A stretch of DNA of 64,000 nt from Naegleria gruberi (lineage: Eukaryota), in NCBI GenBank assembly GCA_000004985.1, contig GG738857.1. One strand, given 5' to 3'. Position 1 is the stretch's first letter; the number at the start of each line of letters is the position of its first letter. The position numbers and the translations under genes are program-made. Below are positions 33,020-45,843 of the stretch, in pieces. The notes under the pieces are model-generated. The model worked only from the letters and a program-made list of their open reading frames with translations, made no database searches and was not told the DNA's origin.

Positions 33020-34657
33020 TCAACTTCCTTTCTGTTCTCGATAGGCTTTGTACCACTCGCAAGAGCCAAAGGTCTGAATGTTTTCCTTCAAGCATCGATA
33101 GGCTAAAAATTCATCATCATTACTGATGCGAAACATTTTGTCGACATTCAACATGCAATCTTCTTCTTCCTGCTGTTGTTGTTGTTGTGGTTGCGATGGA
33201 GGATAATTATTCTCATCGTTGCCATCATCATGTTGATTCACCAAATATTGCCTACTCCTGTAATCCAACCACTTTTCATAGAATAATGGTGCTGCATCGA
33301 GTAATGATGTTCTCAAAGCCTTTGCTCTCCTTTTAATCATCATGGTAGAGAACATGGAGGTTTGCAATGGAAACTTCATATCGGAAAAGACAATAACAAT
33401 CAGCCTTGTGGAGTGAGGACCCAATCGATAGAAGAAACGAACTACAAGAGCATCAGCTCTCACTTCATTCTCCGATTGTTCCAATTCATTGTTGTTATCA
33501 CCATAGCTTTTGTGAATGGTTATGATGCAATCCAATTCTGCATCGTAGACTGTTGCATTGGTAGTGTAGAGAGCTCTGTCCTTCATCTTAATTCCTGCAT
33601 AGTCAAAGGAGAGAATGGTCTTACTCTTTGTACAGGAGAGGGTCTTGTTTTGTGTGCCACTTTTGAAGCCGAGAAGGTGAGATTTCTCTTCAATATCTAA
33701 TTTACATCTACTCTCTGATGAGGCATACAAGGCAAAGATGAAATCTCTCTCCATGTCCAAATTGAAGACATGTTTGTAACATTTGAGGCCAGTTGTTTCT
33801 CGCTTGCCAATACTAAAGTCAGTATTAGAGAGATAGGTCGATAGTACGGATGGCTCCTGTGACTCGTGAACCAATTCCCAGCAATCTGAGGCCTCAGATA
33901 GAGAAAAAGCTCCATAGATGTATCTTGGAGTGATTTCATCACCAACAAAATCATTGGATTTCATTCGAAAGTCAATCCTTCCCTTTTCGTTACTTATGGC
34001 TATACGACGGGTGAATTCTTCACCTTGCTCTGTTAACAATTCTTGTAAATCATTGCTCGTTAAATACCTTGGAAATTGATCTTGCATCATATCGTGCAAT
34101 ATGGAAAGTCGTATACCCTCAAAAGTAAACTCAGGATTAAGTAATTGCAGTATTCTATTTGTGGTGGTGTTACTACTTGAGCGAGATTCTTTGAGAGATG
34201 GCAGCGAACTCACACGGCTCAGTTTGCTTTTCATGAGATTCTCAAGTTCTTCATTCATCTCTTTGGCTTTTTGGATGAGGGTACTCGATAAGTTAAGGGT
34301 AAAACTTTCTAAATGTTTCTTAAAGAATGCTCGAAAGTTATTGTACAAATAATTGATATTGGTTTGGAGTGAAGCTTCCATCTTTTCAGTTTTGAAAAGT
34401 GCCTTCTTTCGGATGGTTTTCAACTTGTATTCATGCTTATATTGTTCGAAATCCTTAAGAAAGACAACTATTTCTTGACAATCAGAAACATTAATCAGAT
34501 AACTGAAGAAATGTTCTCTGGCATCATCTACTTGCAATAGGGCATCAAACTGTACTGAATATTTCTTTGGGTCAAACTTTGTTGGCGACTGTTTGCCGTC
34601 ACCAAAAGATCGATTCTGGCTTCGTCTCTTCATTAATAGCTTTAAAGGTGACGACAT
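33020..34657 (-). CDS. RGS-domain protein (possible upstream Met at 34717)
   Basis: The N-terminal region FDALLQVDDAREHFFSYLINVSDCQEIVVFLKDFEQYK resembles an RGS box. A large C-terminal region has no family recognised. An ATG in an A-rich context lies at 34657. Confidence 0.45.
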   Translation of the reverse strand: MSSPLKLLMKRRSQNRSFGDGKQSPTKFDPKKYSVQFDALLQVDDAREHFFSYLINVSDCQEIVVFLKDFEQYKHEYKLKTIRKKALFKTEKMEASLQTNINYLYNNFRAFFKKHLESFTLNLSSTLIQKAKEMNEELENLMKSKLSRVSSLPSLKESRSSSNTTTNRILQLLNPEFTFEGIRLSILHDMMQDQFPRYLTSNDLQELLTEQGEEFTRRIAISNEKGRIDFRMKSNDFVGDEITPRYIYGAFSLSEASDCWELVHESQEPSVLSTYLSNTDFSIGKRETTGLKCYKHVFNLDMERDFIFALYASSESRCKLDIEEKSHLLGFKSGTQNKTLSCTKSKTILSFDYAGIKMKDRALYTTNATVYDAELDCIITIHKSYGDNNNELEQSENEVRADALVVRFFYRLGPHSTRLIVIVFSDMKFPLQTSMFSTMMIKRRAKALRTSLLDAAPLFYEKWLDYRSRQYLVNQHDDGNDENNYPPSQPQQQQQQEEEDCMLNVDKMFRISNDDEFLAYRCLKENIQTFGSCEWYKAYREQKGS

Positions 34658-35116
34658 TTTTTTAAGCGAATACTTCTTACCACCTAGGCGAAGAAGAGAT
34701 GCACAAATAATTCTCAAGCACTATAGCACCGTGCTATGATTACTAAGTTTTTGACACTCGTTGATAGAGGCGTGGGTTAATGAATCATTCAAAACTGGTC
34801 AATCGCCACAGTGTTTGGACGAAAAGAAATACTTTTATAGATATCCCAATTACTTTATTATTCGGGATGAAGTAAGGATTTATATTGGCCTGGGGTGGTA
34901 TTTTCCCTCATCCCATCAACGCCAATTCTTTGAATATTTGAAGCTCACTTTCGTTGAATTGGACGAAATACAAATAAGGTGTAAAAAAGTGTTTTCTTTA
35001 AATAATGAAAATTTGAGTAAGGTCCTTTAGCAACGTGTAGAAACTTAATGTTTTTTTTTGGATCATGTCGTGTAATCCTTCACTCATCAACCTGTCAACA
35101 ATCATCAAATAAAAAA

Positions 35117-38100
35117 ATGTTAAACTCGGGGACATCAGCAACTGCCTCACATAGGAGGATACACAGTGCTAGTGTCTTTCAGTTCTCTCGTCCCTCCATC
35201 TATAAAAACATTTACGGACAAGAGCAAAAGAAAGAACTTCAATTCACAAATTTATCAAAAATCAACAAGGCAGCATGTTCAGCCGAATCAACAGTTATCA
35301 GTTGTAATCAGGACTTTTTTGCTTTACCATTCGGAACATATGGTAGTGTGATTAGTAGGTTTTATTTTGATGATCAAATTGCCAAATGTCATTTAAGTTA
35401 TGAAACATTCAAATATTGCTGAGGATTCAAAAGTTAGAAGAGCAAATGCCAGTCCACCACTCTTATCTGAACACTCAGGACTTGTTCACGATCACTCCTT
35501 CTCTCCATTTCTTCCATCTGATGGCACTCATCTATTTTCAACATGTTCAGCAGATTGTACTGTTAAAATTTGGAAAATTACACAAAAGGAACAAACAATT
35601 CATGGACATTGTGAAGATTTACAACAAGTTATCACATTGAAAGGTCATGATAAGAAGGTCAATACAGGAGATTTCCATCCGAGTGTGAATAATATTTTCG
35701 TGAGTGCGAGTGGAGATAATACTTTGAGAATTTGGGATATCACAACACAGAAAGATATGATTGTTTTGAGGGATGATTTTGATGATATGGTTCAATCGTG
35801 GGATTGGTCTTCAACTGCATCAGTTTTATATACCTCGAGCAGAGATACTGTGGCAAGAGTTTATGATCCTAGAACAAAGTATGCAATTGTGGTAAGTTTT
35901 CTCATAATTTTCAAAGATTAATTTCATTGGATTTAATTTGTAAAATTTATTCGAATATTATTATGTTCAATATTGGTTTGGAAAATAATGAATGGGAAAA
36001 TAACAGTCAGGAAAAGCTCACGATGGTAAGAAGGGTTTCAGAGTTGTTTGTACCAATCACGATCAATTTTTCACAGTTGGTTTCAATGGATCTGGATCTC
36101 GTGAATTTGCCTTGTGGGATTTGAGAAAAGGTATGAGAAAGGGTCCTCTCACAAGAGAAACAATCAATGACATGACACCAACCCAGCTCTTCCCATTCTA
36201 TGATTCTTCATCTCATCTTTTATATTTGGCTGGTAAGGGAGATACCAAGATGAGAGTTTATGAAATTGATAGTAATTCAGAGCCGTACGTTCACTATTTG
36301 AGTGAATTTAAGCTTACCACAACCAATACTGGTCTTGCCATGTTGCCAAAACGTTTGTGTGATACGAAATCATTCGAGGTGGCTCGTTTTATGAAGTTGA
36401 ATGTGGAGAGTGTGGAAACTTTCAATTTTTACGTTCCAAGAAAGAAGGAACAAGCCGACATCTTCCAAGAGGACTTGTATCCGCCAGTTCCAAGTGGAAA
36501 ACCATCAAACTTGTCATCAGCTGATTGGTTTGGAGGAAAGAGCTGTATGCAAGACCTTATTTCATTGAGACCACCAGAACAAGAATCCTCACCAACTGTA
36601 TCAACTGGCACAAAAATAGCAAGAGGAAGATCGTATGCCTTAAAATCTGCTCCCTCAGTTGATAATGGACTCAATACCAAAGCAAGTGATGAATTTTCGG
36701 ACTCACTCCTTATCAATTCATACGGTTTCTATTTGAATAGTTATTTGAATATTTGGCTTCTCAAGGAGATGAAATGGAAACGATTCTTCTTTGCCCTCCA
36801 CAAGACAAAGAACAATTCGGATACGAATAGCGTAATTATTTATGGTGAGAGTCCTTCTCAGGTCAAAACAATCAGAGATGAAATTTCCAATAAGGAATCC
36901 AATTTGAATAGAAATGAATTCATTTCCAAATATTCAAGATCCAAGAATTGTGGAGTGATTTTCCTTCACCAACTCGTCTACATGCACAAAGCTTACACTT
37001 TGGGAGATGAAAAATTCTCAGACAATCAAACAATTGAAGTCATGTACACAGATATTGTTCAGAATGACAATGTCACCCTATTCTTATCGAGTGATTCTGA
37101 TGAAACTGTCAAATCATGGGTTGAAACCATTATGAAGCTCTGTAAAAAGAAGGATATTGTAAAGAACAACAAGACATTCAAGGGTTACATTTTACAACTC
37201 AAGGAACATGAGGATGATATTCCTGCCTATTGGGCAAAGAGATGGTTAAGCATTACAGAGGATTACATTCTCTTGTATGCTAGTAGAAAGGCAAGCGTGC
37301 CTGAGACTGCTTTGAAATTCCCATCAAGAAAAGGATCCTCCCAGTTCTTTGATTCTCTTTCTCATTACAAGGTCTATGAAAATGTTGATGCTTGTGAATT
37401 TTGTGATAGCATGGCTCTCAATGGAGACGAAAAGAATTTGTGTTTTACTTTGAGATTTGAAGGAAAATCAAAGAAGGACAGAAATATCATTTACTTTTTA
37501 GCAAATGATGATCAACAAAAAGAGTCAATCTTTGAAATGGTCGGTATCAATAGTGGAGCTATCAAGCTTGGTGCTTCAGAAGAGGAAAAGCTCTTGGATA
37601 AACTTGGTCTTGTTGCTCATGAAGAACCAGAAAAAATTGAAGAATCTGTCACTCCAGTCGATGAAGGAATTGGTAAAATTCAAGTATGGCCAATTTCTAG
37701 CTCTATTGCCAATGAAGATATAGAAGATTTATTCTCAGTCTTTGGTAAGATTGATAATACTTTCATTGATCCAAAGGAAGGATTTGCTCTTGTGACTTAC
37801 CATCAAAAGAGTTCTGCTTTGGCAGCTGTCGTACTCAACCAATCTACATTTGATGCTAACAAGATTAATGTTCAAGTTTTGTCAGATGATGAAGTTTATG
37901 AAGCTGGCTTTGTAAAGGTTGATAATCTTAGCCCTCAATGTTCGAAACAAGATTTACGTGATTTGTTTGGAACATTTGGTACCATTCAAAAGATCAAACT
38001 GTGGCGTGATCAAAACAAATCTACAAACTTTAGTGGATTTATCAAGTTCAAGACAAAAGAACAAGCAGAGATGGCCTTAATGTTTAATGGCTCCAAATTA

Positions 38101-40542
38101 TATTACGAAGAAATCAAAGTTACTCTTGTGACTTCTGAAACTGAATTGTCATCTTTCAATCAGGGAGATGATAAGGGTTTTGTCAACGAATATGATCCTA
38201 ATGAAGTCAAAGCAGGAAGACAAAAAGTTCTCATTCAAATCAAGGGTGACAAGAAGATTAGAAGTAGAAAAGTTGAACTTTCACCAAAGAGTGTCAATTC
38301 TGGAGATATTTTCGTTCTCGATTGTGGAGCAACAATTTATGTGTGGAATGGTAAACAGACATCTCGTTTCAAGAAGGCCAGAGGTTTAGATGTTGCTACC
38401 AATTTGAAACTCAAGGAAAGAGGAGGTAATGCTAAAATTCTGATTATGGATGAAGGAAAGGATGATGAAAAGGAGTTGGAGAGACAATTCTGGAATGCCA
38501 TATTTTCCGAATACAAGGATCCATCATTCAAGAAGGAAGATTTCCTTAAAGCAATTCCAGATAAGAAGGCAGGAGGTGACGACAAGGAATTCGAAGAATA
38601 CATTGATAAGAGAACCATTCTCTTCAGAATTGGTTTCACTGAACACAAGTTTGACATGACTGCAGATCCAAAGAGACAAGATGAATATGGAAAGTATCAA
38701 TTGAAAATTGTTAGTAGAGGTGGTCAACCGGCATTGAAAGATTTCAACTCTAACTTTGTCTATGTTTTGGATTGTTGGAGTGAAATTTACATTTGGGAAG
38801 GAAAATTCTCATCCAAGCAACAACGTTCATTTGGAAGAAAATTCGCTTCCAAACTCGAACAACAAGACAAGAGACCAATTTGGACCAGCGTGTGTAAAAT
38901 TGTTGAACACTCTGAACCAATTCTATTCAAGGAGAAAATGTCAGATTATGCAGGTGCTCTTCCAATTGCTGTTTCAAGTGCAGCTCTTGAAGAAAAACAA
39001 GGCAAGGGCAATATTGCTGCCAAGAGAGAACAACATGAAATTGATGTTGATCAAATGTTAAATGCATCGATTGCTCCAAGGGAAGCCATGTTCCACGATG
39101 AATCCCTCTCTGACCAGAACGAGGTCTTTATTTGGAGAGTTGAAGGATTCGAGAAGGTTGAATTCGACTCTAAATTCTATGGACAATTATTTAGTGGAGA
39201 CAGTTTCGTCATCTTATTCAAGTATATCAAGTTTAATAAGGCAAAACATATAATCTACTTTTGGCAAGGAAGAGATTGTTCTACCAATGAGAAGGGTGCT
39301 TCTGCATTGCTAACCATCGATGTTTCTAATATTGATTTGCAAGGTGGAGATGCTCCTCAAATAAGAATAGTTCAACAAAAGGAAACTAGACATTTCTTGT
39401 CCATGTTCCATTCACATTTAGGTTTGGATTCACTCATTATCAATACTGGAAAGTGCATTACAACAGCTCCTGAGACTATTCCAATTAGGAAGAGAATAGG
39501 AGGTGTAGCTGCTTCATCAGCCACAAATGAAGATCCAAACAAGAAGGGATTCCAACAAGCTTTGGAGAATTTGATTATTTACGATGTTCGATGTGTAAAA
39601 TCTCCAATTGCTGACAATGAAAAGCTTGAAAAGACCAAAGCTATTCAAGTTGACCTCTCACCAAATGAATTCAAAAACGTGGAACAACTTTCCCGTCTTT
39701 TCAATTCTAATCACTGTCTCTTAGTATGTACAAAGGACAAGAAGGAATGTTACTTGTGGAAGGGCAAGTATCACAATCAAAAGGAGCTCGAACTCGCTGC
39801 TCACATAGCATTGGATGTGTTAAAATTACCATCCAAACTTATTTCAGTAGATGAAGGAGCAGAAAAGGATGCCTTGTGGAAATTATTTGGTTTGACTGGA
39901 CTTTCTGCAGCACCAATCAAGAAGTACATCAAATCTCAATCAGACAATATCAAGAAGAGAATAGTTCCTAAATTGTATCAATTTTCTGGAGCTACAGGTG
40001 TTGTTGATGTTGAAAGAATTTACAATTATAGTCAGGATGATTTGGATATATTTGGAGTTTTCTTCCTCGATGCCCAGGAAGCTGGTTGCTTCGTTTGGTT
40101 TGGATCTTACTCTCAACATCATGTTCAAAAGGTAGCACTGGAAACAGCCATGAAATACTGTGTGAAACATTACAATAATGGTGAAATGCTTTTACAAGTG
40201 ACACATACCTGTCAAGAACCTAGCTCATTCAAGACTGCCTTCCATGCTTGGTCTTCCTATCGTGACAAGTACATTGTCAATTATTCTAACAATAATCCAA
40301 ATGTTGTAAATAAGGAAGTTGTCATTCCTGCCATGGATATGATCAAGGAATATGCAAGAAAGACCTATTCCTACAAGACCCTACTTTCAGAACAATTACC
40401 AGCAGGAGTTGATGCCACCAAATTGGAAGAATATTTGAGTAGTGAGGAGTTCCAAATGGTTTTCAATATGGGTAGAGAGGAATTTGCAAATCTTTCCAAG
40501 TGGAAACAAGAATCTGAAAAGAGAAAGGTCTACTTGTTCTAA
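35117..40542 (+). CDS. Villidin-like actin-binding protein: coronin-type WD40 propeller, PH-like modules, two RRM-like domains, gelsolin repeats and C-terminal villin headpiece. Proposed join(35117..35342,35434..35891,36007..40542); the first acceptor could alternatively be at 35398.
   Basis: Exons 2-3 encode a coronin propeller (SASGDNTLRIWDI, ARVYDPRT, FFTVGFNGSGSREFALWDLRKG, HLLYLAGKGDTKMRVYEIDSNSEPYVHYLSEFK). Intron 2 (35892..36006, GTAAGT..CAG, phase 0) restores collinearity with coronin. Downstream are PH-like WxxRWF segments, RRM RNP-like motifs (GFALVTY, SGFIKFKTKEQAEMAL), multiple gelsolin-type repeats, and a headpiece (LSSEEFQMVFNMGREEFANLSKWKQESEKRKVYLF). Confidence 0.65.
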
Positions 40543-40731: not shown

Positions 40732-41163
40732 TTAATTTTCCTTGATATCATAAACATGTTCAACACCCATAGCAGAGATGGTATAAACAGTGAATGTCTT
40801 TGCATCACCACCTTCCATAGCTGCTTTAAACTTTTTCAACAAGTTCTTGTCCTTGATTTGCAAATCAGTCTTTTCTTGACCTTCATCATTCATCAAATTC
40901 AAGTAACCGTCCTCCTCATTGAAATCAATGAATTCATACTCCTTCTTGGTAACGAATGGAGCATAGATGGTCAAATCAGTTGGATGAATGGCTTCATACT
41001 TTCTTCCAGTGAAGATATCAGATGCTGTCAAGTGCATCTTTGAGCTACCATGTTTACCTGGCTTGGAGCAGGCAAAATCGATAACTTTGCAAGGAAATCC
41101 TTGAATTATTACATGTGATCCTTTCTTAATATTTCCGACTTGGATTGGATGAGTTTGGCTCAT
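40732..41163 (-). CDS. eif5a: Translation initiation factor eIF-5A
   Basis: 143 aa. Hypusine loop SKPGKHGSSK inside GFPCKVIDFACSKPGKHGSSKMHL. C-terminal OB-fold region (EYEFIDFNEEDGYLNLMNDEG) is collinear with eIF5A. Confidence 0.9.
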   Translation of the reverse strand: MSQTHPIQVGNIKKGSHVIIQGFPCKVIDFACSKPGKHGSSKMHLTASDIFTGRKYEAIHPTDLTIYAPFVTKKEYEFIDFNEEDGYLNLMNDEGQEKTDLQIKDKNLLKKFKAAMEGGDAKTFTVYTISAMGVEHVYDIKEN

Positions 41164-41957: not shown

Positions 41958-44900
41958 ATGTCACAACCTTCACCTCTTCTCATTGGCTCAGCTGCATTGT
42001 TGGGTGTTAGTGGTTTAGTTAATGGATTGTTGTTTATGAAGAATGGAGAATTACAGAAGAAACTTGAGCAATCAACAAGTACTACAAAGAAACATGATGC
42101 TTCATCGTATGGTAAGTTGTTTATTATTTGTTTTGTGTGTTATCTAAACGACCATATGTTTATTCGAATACTTTCGAATATTTATTCATCACCATATGTG
42201 TTTTATTTTCGAATATTTATTCATCACCATGGTGAATTATCGGGTTGAACAACATAATATAGAACAAATTGAAAAATTGGAGAAGGATTTGGAACAATTA
42301 AAAACACTCATCAAGGAAAAGGAAATTCTTCTTCAACAAACTACCAAGGAAAAGGACAATGAATTGAAAAGCATTCAAGAAAATTATAAAACCAAAATGG
42401 AAAAGTTGAATCAAGAGAATTCTCTTCATCTTTCCAAATTAGAAAGTGAAAAGAGTTTGGCAATTAAAGAATTACAAAACAAGACACAATTAGAGATTAC
42501 CAATCTCAAGAATTTACTTGAAAAGGAAAAACACGATCACACTCAATATGTTAAACAAAATACGTTAGAATTAGAAAATGTTTTAAAGACAAAATTGAAA
42601 GAACAAGAAGTTCTCAATTTGGAAATTAACAAATTAAAGAAACGTGAAGTAGAATTAGAATCAGAATTCAATGAAAAGAATGAACAAATTACAAGTCTTG
42701 ACAATCAATTGAATAATGTTAAGAATTTATATTCTGAGAGTATGAAACGTATTCAAGGTATTACCTCTGATTCAATGCAAAAGAAGGAACATGAAGTGAC
42801 TAAATTGAGAGAACAAGTTGAAGAAAAGGAGAAACAAGTTGAAGATTTGTTGAGTGAAAAGAAGAACCTTGAAAATGAATTGAGTGAAAAGAATGAAAGA
42901 ATAACACAACTTGAACAATCAGTTTCTTCAAATAATTCACAAATTGACAATATCGGTACTACTTTAGAAAACTTGAAACACATTCTCACTGATAAGGATT
43001 CTATCATTAATGAAAAGGAAAGTGAAATCAAGCAAAACAGTGAAAAGATTTCAACTCTCTTGAAGGATACCTCACAATTAGAATGTCAATTTACTGAAAC
43101 TATCAATAGTTTAAAGAAACAAATTGAAGATTTGATGACCAAGTCAAGCACTCTCGACAATGAACTCCAACAATCAAGAGAAGTTGTCTCCCAAACTGAA
43201 AAGGAACTTCAATCCAGCGTCAAAAGATCAGAAGGATTGTTGATGGAAATTAATCAACTCTCCAATGAGAAAGCAACTCTCCTCTCCGATAAGGATTCAC
43301 TCTCTGAACAATTGGAAGCTGTCAAGAAGCAATTCGAACAAGTTTCCTCAAAACTCCAACAAGTTCAACAAGATTTGGAAAAGAAAACCGAAGAAGAAAA
43401 GAAGACTGTCTCTGAATTGAATGATACCATTAACAAGGTTAATAATTCTCTCAATGAAAAGGTCACTGAACTCTCCTCCCTCTCGACAACACTCTCACAA
43501 AAGGAAAAGGAAATTTCCGAACTCAAATCACAAGTTGAACAATTGAATAATCAAATGGCCTCAAAGGAACAATCAATTTCTCAATTGCAAACTCAACTTG
43601 AAACTCTTTCATCTGAATCTTCTGCATCAATCAAGAGTCTCACTGAAGAAAAGCAAAAGGTTGAACAAGAATTGTCTTCATTGAAGGTTCAATTGACTAA
43701 TGCTTCTGATGAAGTAAACAAGGAACACACCTTGTTGGAAAATTATAAGAAGGATTTGGAACAAAAGCAAACAGAAATTAACAAGAAAACCGAAGAAATT
43801 TCCACATTGACCAATTCACTCAATCAATTAAAGAAGGAAAGCGAAGAAAAGATTCAGAACCTCGATCAATCAATTTCATCACTCAATGAAAAGGACGTCA
43901 AATCTCAAGAAACCATTCAATCCGTCACTGAACAACTCAACACAGCAAAGAACTCTCTTGAAACCTCACAACAAGAAGCTCAACAATTGCAAGCTACCAT
44001 CAAATCCCTTGAAGAATCCAAAGAACAATTGCAAAACCAAATTCAATCTTTGAATGATCAAGTTCAAAACAAGGATTCTGAAATTCAATCCTTGAAGAAC
44101 TCTTTGGCTAATTTGGAAAAGGAGAAACAAACTCAAAGCGAAGAATTGAGCCAAACATCAAAGAAGGTCACTCAATTGGAAGAAGAATTAAAACAAGCCA
44201 ACTCTTCTATTTCAGACATCTCCAAGAAGCTCGATTCTACACAAGAAGCTGAAACTCAAAAGACCCAAAAGGTTAGCGAATTGGAAAGTCAAATCAAATC
44301 TTTGCAAGATGCTGCCAATAATCAATCCAAGGAAATTTCTGATTTCACTGAACAAGTCAACTCTGTAAAGAAGCAATTATCTGAAAAGGAATCTGAATTA
44401 GGAAAGGTTTCGGAACAAGTTTCTTTATTGACTGCTGAACTTGCCAAATACAAGCAAGACCTCTCTGAATCCTCTTCATCATTGGAATCAACCAAGCAAC
44501 AATTAACAACTGCCACAGAAACGATTGCAACCCTTGAAACTCAAGCTGGAGAATTGAAAGATTTGGTTTCTCAAAAGGAATCTGCTGCCCAATCCTTGAC
44601 TGAACAACTCGAAAAGGAAAAGCAACAATCTACTCAAGCACTCGCTGAAGCTTCTCAAACAAAGGATGCTGAAATTCAAACTCTTAAGGAATTAGTCAAC
44701 CAAAAGGAAACTTCCAACAGCCAAGTTTTGCAAGAATTACAAGAAAAGACAGAAACAATCGCCAAGATTGAAAACCAAATTAAGGAATTGGAATCAAAAC
44801 TTACTGCCTCCACTCAACAATTCACCGAATTGCAAAGCAAGAAGGAAGAATCTGAAAAGACTGTCCAGAAATTAGAATCCGAAGTCCAAACTCATTTGAG

Positions 44901-45843
44901 TACAATTAACGACTTGAAAAAGTCCATGAAAGAAAAGCAAACTCAAATCACTGAATTGGAATCAAAGGTCAAACAATCGAATAGCAACAATAACAATAAT
45001 GGAAAGAAGAAGAATAATGGAAAGGGAGGAAATAGCAGTAATCACGATAATGAAGTTCAACAACTCCAAAAGGAAAACAACAAGTTGAAACACGAATCAG
45101 AGGAGAAAATTACCCAACTCTCCAAGACAATTTCTGAACAAACTGAACAACAAGAAAAGAAAGAAAAGGAATTCAAAGAACAATTGGAAGCCCAAGAAAA
45201 GACCAAACAAGAAGAAGTTGCTGCTCTCAAGAAGATCATTGAAGAATTGCAATCCAAGTTGAAGAATTCAAGTACAAGTACTAGTACCACTCACCAACCT
45301 AAAATCACATTGACCGAATCATCTGATGCCTTAGATAAGCTCATCCACAAGTTGCAAAATGATAACGTTGAAACTATTGATATTTTCGTACCATTGATTG
45401 ATAGTGGATTCCTTGAAACTCTTTCTGATTTGCCAAGAGAAAAGATTAGTCTCTTATTCGAATCCTTGAATAATACTCCTTCATTGAGATCGATTATTTT
45501 TGATGGATGTGCTCTCACTCAAGAAGATATGACAAGTTTGCTTCAAACTCTCTCCACTAACAAGACAATGACTACCTTGGATATTTCAGATGAATTCAAG
45601 GGAGATGAAGTTTTAGATGCCTTATGCTCTTTCATTTCAACAAATGACACTTGTAAGAGTCTCAAGATTAGAGATTGGAAATTCGAAGCCAGCTCTCTCC
45701 ACAAACTTGCCACCACCATCCAAGAATCTACTGAAAAGGGTGTTTGTAAGCTTAGTACTTTAGAGTTTGATCCAACCCTTGAATCTGTTATGACCGATGA
45801 CGATTTGGAATTAATCAATTCTGCCCTTAAATCTAATCAATAA
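41958..45843 (+). CDS. Long coiled-coil protein with N-terminal TM segment and C-terminal RNI/tropomodulin-like LRR cap; join(41958..42111,42263..45843), 151-nt GTAAGT..TAG intron carrying a 23-bp direct repeat
   Basis: Exon 1 encodes MSQPSPLLIGSAALLGVSGLVNGLLFM... and ends GTAAGT in phase 1. Splicing to the AG at 42261-62 continues ...EQIEKLEKDLEQLK... into about 1000 aa of heptad-rich E/K/Q/L sequence. The C-terminus reads ...SLRSIIFDGCALTQEDMTSLLQTLSTNKTMTTLDIS.... Confidence 0.55.

What the first reader, a model, noticed from the sequence alone, without database searches (positions are those of the whole stretch)
37670..38150. Two RRM-like domains embedded in a villidin-type actin-binding protein
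Between the PH-like modules and the gelsolin repeats the protein carries two segments with RRM topology and RNP1-like motifs (KEGFALVTYHQKSSALAAV; NFSGFIKFKTKEQAEMALMFNG). Coronin-PH-gelsolin-headpiece is the villidin architecture. An RNA-recognition module inside it would link an actin cross-linker to RNA or to RRM-mediated protein interactions. I do not recall this for villidin.
Basis: partly seen in the sequence, partly recalled or inferred. Interest (0 to 1): 0.55.

Follow-up and report, generated by a model that had tools for sequence, protein, structure and literature searches.

The report
Tandem RRM domains in Naegleria villidin-type coronin
The Naegleria gruberi actin-binding protein annotated as "villin" really does carry two conserved RRM-fold (RNA-recognition-type) domains where related amoeba proteins have a membrane-binding PH domain, a lineage-specific and so far undescribed domain swap of untested function.

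Summary
Window 37672-38130 (+) encodes two RRM folds. Pfam RRM_1 gives E=1e-23 to 4.5e-26, 83-91 bits against a cut-off of 20.7. The AlphaFold2 model has mean pLDDT 90 with two β1α1β2β3α2β4 units.

They lie in one 1511-codon exon of a 1755-aa protein identical to XP_002679428.1, "villin [Naegleria gruberi]". Its architecture is coronin, 2 PH, 2 RRM, gelsolin repeats and a headpiece. That makes it a class-4 coronin (villidin type).

The region is coding and constrained, with dN/dS of about 0.03 against a close relative. The same arrangement occurs in N. fowleri, N. lovaniensis, Willaertia magna, Acrasis kona and several unidentified organisms. These proteins form one group (100/100 bootstrap). 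Class-4 coronins without RRMs, including the Cavenderia villidin-like protein, have a third PH domain in the same slot.

The RNA-binding signature is degenerate. RRM1 has lost the conserved aromatic residues and is acidic. RRM2 keeps one aromatic (7/10), an invariant Lys and a basic residue on β1.

I found no paper that mentions the RRMs, although databases already flag them automatically. I class this as a new variant of a known kind. Function is inferred only: a ligand adaptor on an actin scaffold, with RNA binding plausible through RRM2 but unproven.

The parts
35117..40542 (+). Whole gene for a class-4 coronin / villidin-type protein of 1755 aa. Exons are 35117-35354, 35398-35891 and 36007-40542 (stop included). 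The introns are 43 and 115 nt, both GT..AG.
   Evidence: I derived the splice model by eye against the N. lovaniensis orthologue and verified it. The product is identical to XP_002679428.1 / EFC46684.1 / UniProt D2V8H4, 'villin [Naegleria gruberi]'.
35183..36543 (+). Coronin domain, aa 23-423, made of DUF1899, a WD40 propeller and WD40_4. It spans both introns.
   Evidence: Pfam: DUF1899 E=1.9e-11 (aa 23-85), WD40 E=2.5e-12, WD40_4 E=2.8e-11 (aa 382-423). It is 80% identical to N. lovaniensis.
36724..37545 (+). Two PH-like modules, aa ~484-757. The better-scoring PH2 is aa 636-750, window 37180-37524.
   Evidence: Pfam PH gives E=2.6e-7 with two stretches and E=4.9e-7 for aa 636-750. This is the least conserved part of the protein, 51% identical to N. 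lovaniensis.
37672..37878 (+). RRM1, aa 800-868. It is a pseudo-RRM: acidic, with no conserved RNP aromatic residues and an invariant Pro at RNP2 position 5.
   Evidence: It is one of the two RRM_1 stretches. It also matches RRM_occluded at E=2.8e-7, 30.8 bits against a cut-off of 30. AF2 pLDDT is about 90-95. RNP positions across 10 orthologues are tabulated. pI is 4.7-6.4.
37879..37905 (+). Nine-residue inter-RRM linker, aa 869-877, with a short predicted helix.
   Evidence: AF2 predicts helix H74-77. pLDDT dips to about 78 here. pTM is only 0.57, so the relative orientation of the two RRMs is not fixed in the model.
37906..38130 (+). RRM2, aa 878-952. It scores better than RRM1 and is basic in the Naegleria, Willaertia and P0015 proteins. 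It keeps an aromatic at RNP1-5 (F922), an invariant Lys at RNP1-7 (K924), a Lys/Arg at RNP2-2 (K881) and an aromatic just before β1 (F879).
   Evidence: The best RRM_1 stretch is aa 881-947, profile positions 2-69 of 70. K924 is invariant in alignments A2 and A3. pI is 8.9-9.4 in 5 of 7 sequences.
38131..38265 (+). Variable low-complexity linker followed by the conserved pre-gelsolin motif F-x-N-E-Y-D-P-N-E-V-K-x-G-x-Q-K-V-L-I-Q-I-K-G.
   Evidence: The motif is conserved in class-4 coronins with and without RRMs, so it marks the C-terminal edge of the swapped slot. AF2 pLDDT is below 50 in the linker.
38266..40431 (+). Gelsolin-repeat region. The first repeat is aa 998-1062, window 38266-38460.
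   Evidence: Pfam Gelsolin gives E=4.6e-42 with 5 stretches.
40432..40539 (+). Villin headpiece (VHP), aa 1720-1755, at the C-terminus.
   Evidence: Pfam VHP gives E=1.5e-13 and covers the full profile, positions 1-36 of 36.

Best explanation
Shown: window 37672-38130 encodes two genuine RRM-fold domains inside one exon of the N. gruberi class-4 coronin, annotated 'villin' (XP_002679428.1). The domain order is coronin, PH, PH, RRM, RRM, gelsolin repeats, headpiece. The RRM pair sits exactly where other class-4 coronins (villidin type) carry a third PH domain. That slot runs from a short '..LGL/LGI..' segment after PH2 to the conserved 'DPxEVKxGxQKxLIQxKG' motif before the first gelsolin repeat. 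The arrangement is shared by Naegleria (3 species), Willaertia, Acrasis and several unidentified relatives, which form one group. It is under strong purifying selection.

Inferred: the pair works as a ligand-binding adaptor on an actin- and membrane-associated scaffold. RRM1 is a pseudo-RRM. It has lost the RNA-stacking aromatic residues and is acidic, so it most likely makes a protein or intramolecular contact. RRM2 keeps a conserved aromatic-plus-basic β-sheet face: F/Y before β1, K/R at RNP2-2, an aromatic at RNP1-5 and an invariant Lys at RNP1-7. It is the candidate for low-specificity or non-canonical binding of single-stranded RNA or an RNP. That would tether RNA or RNP to actin filaments held by the headpiece, gelsolin and coronin parts.

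I put the anatomy and evolution at about 0.95. I put the RNA-tethering function at about 0.4.
For: - Domain identity: RRM_1 E=1e-23 to 4.5e-26 in two stretches. AF2 mean pLDDT is 90.4 with two βαββαβ units. Foldseek top hits are tandem RRMs at E about 1e-12.
- Coding status: the region is one open exon of 1511 codons. My model is identical to RefSeq. dN/dS is 0.027 over 128 RRM codons against a close relative, compared with 0.063 in the adjacent PH2 and linker. Indels between N. gruberi and N. lovaniensis fall in linkers, not in the RRM cores.
- Conservation: an exhaustive HMMER search finds contiguous RRM-RRM-gelsolin in N. fowleri, W. magna and unidentified organisms. A full-length profile search adds Acrasis kona and P0170. 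Nine of the 10 tandem segments hit RRM_1.
- Single group: the split between RRM-bearing proteins and the others gets 100/100 NJ bootstraps, separately on coronin-only and on gelsolin+VHP-only columns.
- Slot equivalence: the same slot gives Pfam PH in 4 of 6 RRM-less class-4 coronins (E=5.6e-9 to 2.5e-12) and no RRM at E<=1.
- RRM2 face: K924 is invariant in 10/10. RNP2-2 is K/R in 9/10. RNP1-5 is aromatic in 7/10. The residue before β1 is aromatic in 9/10. pI is 8.9-9.4 in five taxa.
- Flexible tandem: pTM of 0.57 is compatible with RRM pairs that close on a ligand.
Against: - The canonical RNA-contact aromatic residues are mostly absent or not conserved. In RRM1, RNP2-2 is aromatic in 0/10, RNP1-3 in 2/10 and RNP1-5 in 2/10. 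In RRM2, RNP2-2 is aromatic in 0/10 and RNP1-3 in 1/10.
- N. fowleri and N. lovaniensis have Ile at RRM2 RNP1-5.
- RRM2 is acidic in P0016 and P0090, with pI 5.1-5.4.
- The P0172 tandem is so diverged that Pfam no longer detects it.
- No RNA-binding or expression experiment exists for this protein.
- The direction of the PH3 versus 2xRRM swap cannot be polarised, because no outgroup has this slot.
- I saw no transcript data.
Confidence: 0.45

Rival explanations
1. The two RRM folds are purely protein-protein or intramolecular interaction modules that never touch RNA. They might dock a partner protein, or fold back on the gelsolin or coronin parts to regulate actin binding. Known precedents for protein-binding RRMs are UHMs, the raver1 RRM1-vinculin contact and occluded RRMs.
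For: - The RNP aromatic residues are lost and not conserved, and RRM1 is acidic.
- RRM1 hits Pfam RRM_occluded just above its cut-off (30.8 against 30 bits). Six of the 10 orthologues hit this family.
- The exposed β3 positions of RRM1 are aliphatic (L/V/I), as expected for a covered sheet.
- The raver1-vinculin complexes are among the structural matches (3vf0_B at E=1.3e-11; 3h2u at E=2.4e-5).
Against: - The defining UHM R-x-F motif is absent in both domains (read from the alignments).
- The RRM2 β-sheet face keeps an invariant Lys, a K/R and an aromatic, a pattern typical of nucleic-acid contact.
- AF2 shows no helix covering either sheet within the tandem, and pTM is 0.57.
- No partner is known.
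Confidence: 0.35
2. Both RRMs are canonical, sequence-specific RNA binders like PABP or HuR RRM1-2, and the protein is a dedicated mRNA-localisation factor.
For: Profile scores are high, and the closest matches by sequence and structure are PABP, HuR/HuD, CELF and TIA-1.
Against: Five of the six canonical aromatic positions are not conserved across orthologues, and RRM1 is acidic.
Confidence: 0.07
3. The RRM pair is an inert, folded spacer that merely replaces the PH3 domain sterically and has no ligand of its own.
For: The same slot tolerates a PH domain in other lineages. One lineage (P0172) has let the RRM signature decay.
Against: dN/dS is 0.027, lower than in the neighbouring PH2. Surface residues are invariant (P806, S808, D815, D860, D893, K924). 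The pair is retained across Naegleria, Willaertia and Acrasis.
Confidence: 0.1
4. Artefact: an unrecognised intron, a gene fusion caused by mis-assembly, or a chance profile match.
For: None was found. I saw no transcript data directly.
Against: - The exon is a continuous 4.5-kb ORF.
- The same contiguous arrangement occurs as uninterrupted ORFs on independent contigs in several assemblies, with the RRM region part of the annotated coding sequence in the others.
- Purifying selection is strong.
- RRM_1 scores E=1e-23.
- The model is identical to the RefSeq protein.
Confidence: 0.02

Closest known systems
Class-4 coronins / villidin (Dictyostelium VilA; Eckert, Hammesfahr & Kollmar 2011, PMC3203266)
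   Same: It has an N-terminal coronin domain, PH domains, gelsolin repeats lacking villin's G1, and a C-terminal villin headpiece. N. gruberi is explicitly listed in that paper as possessing a class-4 coronin. The pre-gelsolin motif and overall colinearity are shared.
   Different: This protein has 2 PH plus 2 RRM, where the RRM-less class-4 coronins I examined have a third PH domain. The paper's domain list (WD, PH, LZ, VHP, gelsolin) does not include RRM.
Tandem-RRM RNA-binding proteins (PABP RRM1-2, HuR/HuD RRM1-2, DBHS proteins SFPQ/NONO/PSPC1, Prp24)
   Same: These are the best sequence and fold matches. They share two RRMs joined by a short linker.
   Different: Those proteins keep the RNP1 and RNP2 aromatic residues and are dedicated RNA-binding proteins. 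Here the aromatic residues are mostly lost. The NOPS and coiled-coil parts of DBHS proteins are absent. The flanks here are actin-binding domains.
Raver1 (three RRMs; binds vinculin/metavinculin; PDB 3H2U, 3VF0, 3SMZ)
   Same: RRM modules are physically coupled to actin-associated machinery, and an RRM is used as a protein-contact surface. It appears among the structural and sequence matches.
   Different: Raver1 is a separate protein recruited non-covalently. Here the RRMs are fused in cis to the coronin, gelsolin and headpiece domains. There is no detectable specific homology beyond the RRM fold.
Non-canonical RRMs: occluded RRM (Pfam PF16842, Prp24 RRM4) and UHM
   Same: RRM1 has degenerate RNP motifs and an acidic helix α1. 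It scores 30.8 bits on RRM_occluded against a cut-off of 30.
   Different: No R-x-F motif (the UHM hallmark) is present. AF2 predicts no flanking helices covering the sheet.
Coronin 7 (tandem, class-3 coronin)
   Same: Outside class 4, the coronin domain's best matches are coronin-7 proteins, at 32-45% identity over 7-12% of the query.
   Different: There is a single coronin domain here. Coronin 7 has no PH, RRM, gelsolin or VHP domains.

Membership tests
RRM (Pfam PF00076 RRM_1) | Profile match above the curated gathering score | tested here: met
   83-91 bits against a cut-off of 20.7, in two stretches. Nine of 10 orthologous segments match.
RRM (Pfam PF00076 RRM_1) | β1α1β2β3α2β4 fold | tested here: met
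   AF2 predicts E3-8 H16-26 E29-35 E40-45 H48-57 E68-71 and E81-88 H94-104 E107-114 E122-128 H131-140 E151-155, with mean pLDDT 90.4. Foldseek hits are tandem RRMs. This is a prediction, not a solved structure.
RRM (canonical RNA-binding type) | Conserved aromatic residues at RNP2-2, RNP1-3 and RNP1-5 | tested here: not met
   In RRM1 the counts are 0/10, 2/10 and 2/10. In RRM2 they are 0/10, 1/10 and 7/10 (alignment).
RRM (canonical RNA-binding type) | Binds single-stranded RNA | not testable with these tools
   This needs EMSA, RBNS or CLIP.
Class-4 coronin / villidin | N-terminal coronin domain (DUF1899 + WD40 propeller + WD40_4) | tested here: met
   DUF1899 E=1.9e-11, WD40 E=2.5e-12, WD40_4 E=2.8e-11.
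Class-4 coronin / villidin | Two to four PH domains after the coronin domain | tested here: met
   Two PH stretches are found. A third PH is absent, and its slot holds the RRM pair.
Class-4 coronin / villidin | Four to five gelsolin repeats plus a C-terminal villin headpiece | tested here: met
   Gelsolin E=4.6e-42 with 5 stretches. VHP E=1.5e-13 at the extreme C-terminus.
Class-4 coronin / villidin | Groups with class-4 coronins in a coronin-family phylogeny | not tested
   My NJ trees contained class-4 sequences only. Placement of the N. gruberi protein in class 4 rests on Eckert et al. 2011.
UHM (U2AF homology motif, protein-binding RRM) | R-x-F motif in the α2-β4 loop, with an acidic α1 | tested here: not met
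   The α2-β4 loops read QSTFDANK and NGSKLYYE, with no R-x-F. The F is not conserved and is L in most orthologues. The acidic α1 is present in RRM1 only.
DBHS family (SFPQ/NONO/PSPC1) | RRM1-RRM2 followed by a NOPS domain and a coiled coil | tested here: not met
   After RRM2 comes a disordered linker (pLDDT below 50) and then gelsolin repeats.

The most novel reading that the evidence does not exclude
Heterolobosean amoebae use this coronin-RRM-villin fusion as a direct anchor for mRNA or RNP on actin filaments. Naegleria amoebae lack interphase microtubules (Velle & Fritz-Laylin 2020, PMC7594500). RNA positioning or local translation in them would therefore have to be actin-based. A single polypeptide that binds F-actin (headpiece, gelsolin, coronin), membranes (PH) and RNA (RRM2) would be a minimal, previously unknown solution. 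It would have been acquired by exchanging a PH domain for an RRM pair.
Probability: 0.15. Interest if true: 0.75.

Novelty: new variant of a known kind. Interest (0 to 1): 0.42.

Why it matters
Class-4 coronins are described in the literature as coronin-PH-gelsolin-headpiece proteins that link actin to internal membranes. This work shows that one whole eukaryotic lineage, the Heterolobosea, which includes the pathogen N. fowleri, has a conserved and strongly constrained variant. In it one PH domain is exchanged for two RRM folds.

If RRM2 binds RNA, this would be a rare case of an RNA-binding module fused in cis to an actin-binding scaffold, in cells that lack interphase microtubules. That makes the question of actin-based RNA positioning directly testable with one recombinant fragment (aa 798-955) and three point mutants.

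If the domains turn out to be protein-binding modules, this is still a clean example of RRM folds being reused for non-RNA roles, and of domain-slot exchange at a fixed linker.

The practical value is modest until an experiment is done. Databases already tag the RRMs automatically, and domain shuffling is common in protists.

Tried and rejected
1. Word-indexed homologue search with the 204-aa RRM alignment A1. It returned only two fragments (P0090, P0014) and missed known orthologues. The index appears sparse for short regions of long proteins. The exhaustive HMMER search and a full-length profile were needed instead.

2. Identifying the organisms behind P0015 (ERR14790941), P0016 (SRR32315890) and P0170 (GCA_037189345.1). 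A full-text search for the two run accessions found nothing. The neighbouring genes on L002 (TauE, ferritin) are uninformative. These organisms remain unidentified.

3. Transcript evidence. L003 has no poly(A) tail and looks genomic. The exact N. gruberi protein is not on record in the contig look-up. I therefore have no direct cDNA evidence, and coding status rests on ORF continuity, the RefSeq model and dN/dS.

4. The UHM hypothesis for RRM1 was rejected because there is no R-x-F motif.

5. A rigid tandem unit was not supported. pTM is 0.52-0.57 despite pLDDT of 90.

6. Polarity of the swap. The unrooted split is robust, but no outgroup has this slot, so I do not claim which state (PH3 or 2xRRM) is ancestral.

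7. Link to the 'villin-1' protein reported as most up-regulated in highly pathogenic N. fowleri (PMC4082629). That paper identifies the protein only by its best Swiss-Prot hit (bovine villin-1). Identity with the RRM-bearing orthologue FDP41_010354 could not be established.

8. Charge as a predictor. RRM2 is basic in five taxa but acidic in two, so charge is not a consistent argument.

Full report
**Source and gene model**

The window is Naegleria gruberi. The eIF5A ORF at 40735-41163 (-) is identical to XP_002679554.1.

The finding lies in a + strand ORF, 36112-40542. Comparison with the N. lovaniensis orthologue P0001 (58% identity, 100% coverage) and the upstream DNA gives three exons: 35117-35354, 35398-35891 and 36007-40542. 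The introns are 43 and 115 nt, both GT..AG, and the product is 1755 aa. This product is exactly XP_002679428.1 / EFC46684.1 / UniProt D2V8H4, "villin [Naegleria gruberi]". The public annotation therefore already treats the region as coding.

**Observation**

- Pfam finds DUF1899, WD40 and WD40_4 (the coronin domain), PH, RRM_1, gelsolin repeats and a C-terminal villin headpiece.
- RRM_1 scores E=1.1e-23 on the ORF and E=4.5e-26 (91 bits, cut-off 20.7) on the isolated 177-aa piece, in two stretches each time.
- phmmer against PDB sequences finds 92 RRM proteins.
- AlphaFold2 on a 10-sequence alignment gives mean pLDDT 90.4 and two β1α1β2β3α2β4 units. pTM is only 0.57, so the two domains are well defined but their mutual orientation is not.
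- Foldseek against the PDB returns tandem RRMs: HuR, SFPQ/NONO/PSPC1, Prp24, PABP and raver1, at E=1e-11 to 2e-13.
- Exact coordinates are RRM1 37672-37878 (aa 800-868), linker 37879-37905 and RRM2 37906-38130 (aa 878-952).

**Coding status and constraint**

The RRMs lie in one 1511-codon exon together with the PH, gelsolin and VHP domains.

L004 is a metagenomic contig from a close relative, 79% identical in nucleotides. Against it, the 128 RRM codons give dN=0.039, dS=1.44 and ω=0.027. The adjacent PH2 and linker give ω=0.063.

Between N. gruberi and N. lovaniensis, RRM1 is 64% identical and RRM2 70%. The whole protein is 68% and the PH region 51%. The many N. lovaniensis insertions fall in linkers.

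**Distribution**

An exhaustive HMMER search of 1.84 billion representatives with RRM1-RRM2-G1 found contiguous matches across all three domains in four full-length proteins:

- N. fowleri (FDP41_010354)
- Willaertia magna (ABK040_011939)
- Two unidentified assemblies (P0015, P0016)

The same search also returned fragments P0090 and P0014. P0090 spans both RRMs and runs just into the pre-gelsolin motif. P0014 covers part of RRM1 and RRM2 only.

A full-length profile search added Acrasis kona AKO1_014343, P0170 (assembly GCA_037189345.1) and P0172. The tandem in P0172 is too degenerate for Pfam. Nine of the 10 tandem segments hit RRM_1. The named organisms are all Heterolobosea.

NJ trees were built on coronin-only columns, on gelsolin+VHP-only columns, and on all ungapped core columns. 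Each separates the RRM-bearing proteins from RRM-less class-4 coronins in 100 of 100 bootstraps.

**The slot**

RRM-less class-4 coronins are P0020, P0075, P0099, P0102, P0155 and the Cavenderia fasciculata 'villin' P0029. None has an RRM. The segment that aligns with the RRM pair was scanned on its own at E<=1. It gives a PH domain in four of the six (E=5.6e-9 to 2.5e-12), a weak PH in Cavenderia, and never an RRM.

Both kinds of protein share the flanks: a '..LGL/LGI..' segment after PH2 and the 'DPxEVKxGxQKxLIQxKG' motif before the first gelsolin repeat. This is a domain exchange (PH3 versus 2xRRM) at a fixed slot. The direction cannot be polarised without an outgroup that has the slot.

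**RNA-binding signature (10-sequence alignment)**

RRM1:
- RNP2-2 is Q/K/S/D/I/H/L, with no aromatic in any of the 10.
- RNP2-5 is an invariant Pro.
- RNP1-3 is aromatic in 2/10.
- RNP1-5 is aliphatic in 8/10.
- pI is 4.7-6.4.
- It also touches Pfam RRM_occluded (30.8 bits against a cut-off of 30).

RRM2:
- RNP2-2 is K/R in 9/10.
- The residue before β1 is aromatic in 9/10.
- RNP1-3 is aromatic in 1/10.
- RNP1-5 is aromatic in 7/10, but Ile in N. fowleri and N. lovaniensis.
- RNP1-7 (K924) is invariant.
- pI is 8.9-9.4 in five taxa but 5.1-5.4 in two.

No UHM R-x-F motif is present in either domain.

RRM1 is therefore best read as a pseudo-RRM. RRM2 keeps a partly canonical aromatic and basic face.

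**Literature**

Eckert, Hammesfahr & Kollmar 2011 (PMC3203266) define class-4 coronins, with villidin as representative. They list N. gruberi and describe PH, gelsolin and VHP domains only. 'RRM' and 'RNA recognition' do not occur in that paper.

Searches combining Naegleria, villin, coronin, gelsolin and RRM found no paper that mentions the RRMs. The precomputed Pfam annotation of the orthologues does list PF00076, so databases flag it automatically.

Velle & Fritz-Laylin 2020 (PMC7594500) state that Naegleria amoebae lack interphase microtubules. They do not discuss this protein.

**Interpretation**

The anatomy is settled. This is a real, conserved tandem RRM fold in a villidin-type coronin, specific to Heterolobosea as far as the sampled data show.

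Function is inferred. My preferred reading (about 0.4) is an adaptor in which RRM2 binds RNA or an RNP non-canonically and RRM1 makes a protein or intramolecular contact. That would couple RNA to an actin and membrane scaffold. A pure protein-interaction role is nearly as likely (0.35). Canonical sequence-specific RNA binding by both domains (0.07), an inert spacer (0.1) and an artefact (0.02) are less likely.

Novelty: a new variant of a known kind. Interest is moderate. The architecture is unusual and easy to test. Against that, domain shuffling in protists is common, the RNP motifs are degenerate, and no functional data exist.

Noticed in passing
window 39760-39900 (aa ~1246-1290 of the protein); L001 / P0001: The N. 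lovaniensis model C9374_008911 lacks about 40 residues (GNIAAKREQHEIDVDQML...SDQNE) that are present in both N. gruberi and N. fowleri. Identity drops to 0.24 in that 50-aa window. This is probably a mispredicted intron in the N. lovaniensis annotation rather than a real deletion.
   Followed up: partly
L004 ~480-500 (metagenome contig ERZ4903137 k141_633963): The close relative's contig switches reading frame inside RRM1 (FSVFEKN* against FSVFGKIDNT), so two overlapping genes were called. It looks like a single-base assembly error, because both flanks stay under strong purifying selection.
   Followed up: partly
P0172 (EukProt gene6648-10813_t), aa 664-847: This relative of P0015 keeps a recognisable two-RRM-like segment in the same slot, but no Pfam RRM is precomputed for it. 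It has lost the G of the FG motif, and RNP1-5 is Asn. It may be a lineage where the RRM pair is decaying.
   Followed up: partly
window 40732-41163 (-): An eIF5A gene lies 190 bp downstream, tail to tail with the villidin-type gene. It is identical to XP_002679554.1 and served to identify the species.
   Followed up: yes
window 42196-45843 (+): A 1215-aa ORF dominated by coiled coil (Q/E/K/L-rich) with a C-terminal leucine-rich segment. It has only sub-threshold Pfam hits (ATG17_like at 31.8 bits against a cut-off of 43). The exact ORF is not in the protein collection, so the public gene model probably differs.
   Followed up: partly
window 33020-34717 (-): A 565-aa ORF upstream on the opposite strand has no Pfam match at E<=1e-3. 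It contains a short poly-Q/E run near its C-terminus.
   Followed up: partly
N. fowleri orthologue P0162 (FDP41_010354); PMC4082629: A proteomics paper reports a 'villin-1'-like protein as the most up-regulated protein in highly pathogenic N. fowleri, 10- to 17-fold. Whether that protein is this RRM-bearing class-4 coronin or another gelsolin-family protein is not stated and could not be checked.
   Followed up: partly
RRM1, window 37690-37698 (aa 806-808, P-I-S): Pro at RNP2 position 5 is invariant across all ten orthologues, and Ser two residues later is near-invariant (9 of 10; P0172 has Pro). Canonical RRMs have Asn or Gly at that position. This is a family-specific signature with no explanation so far.
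   Followed up: no
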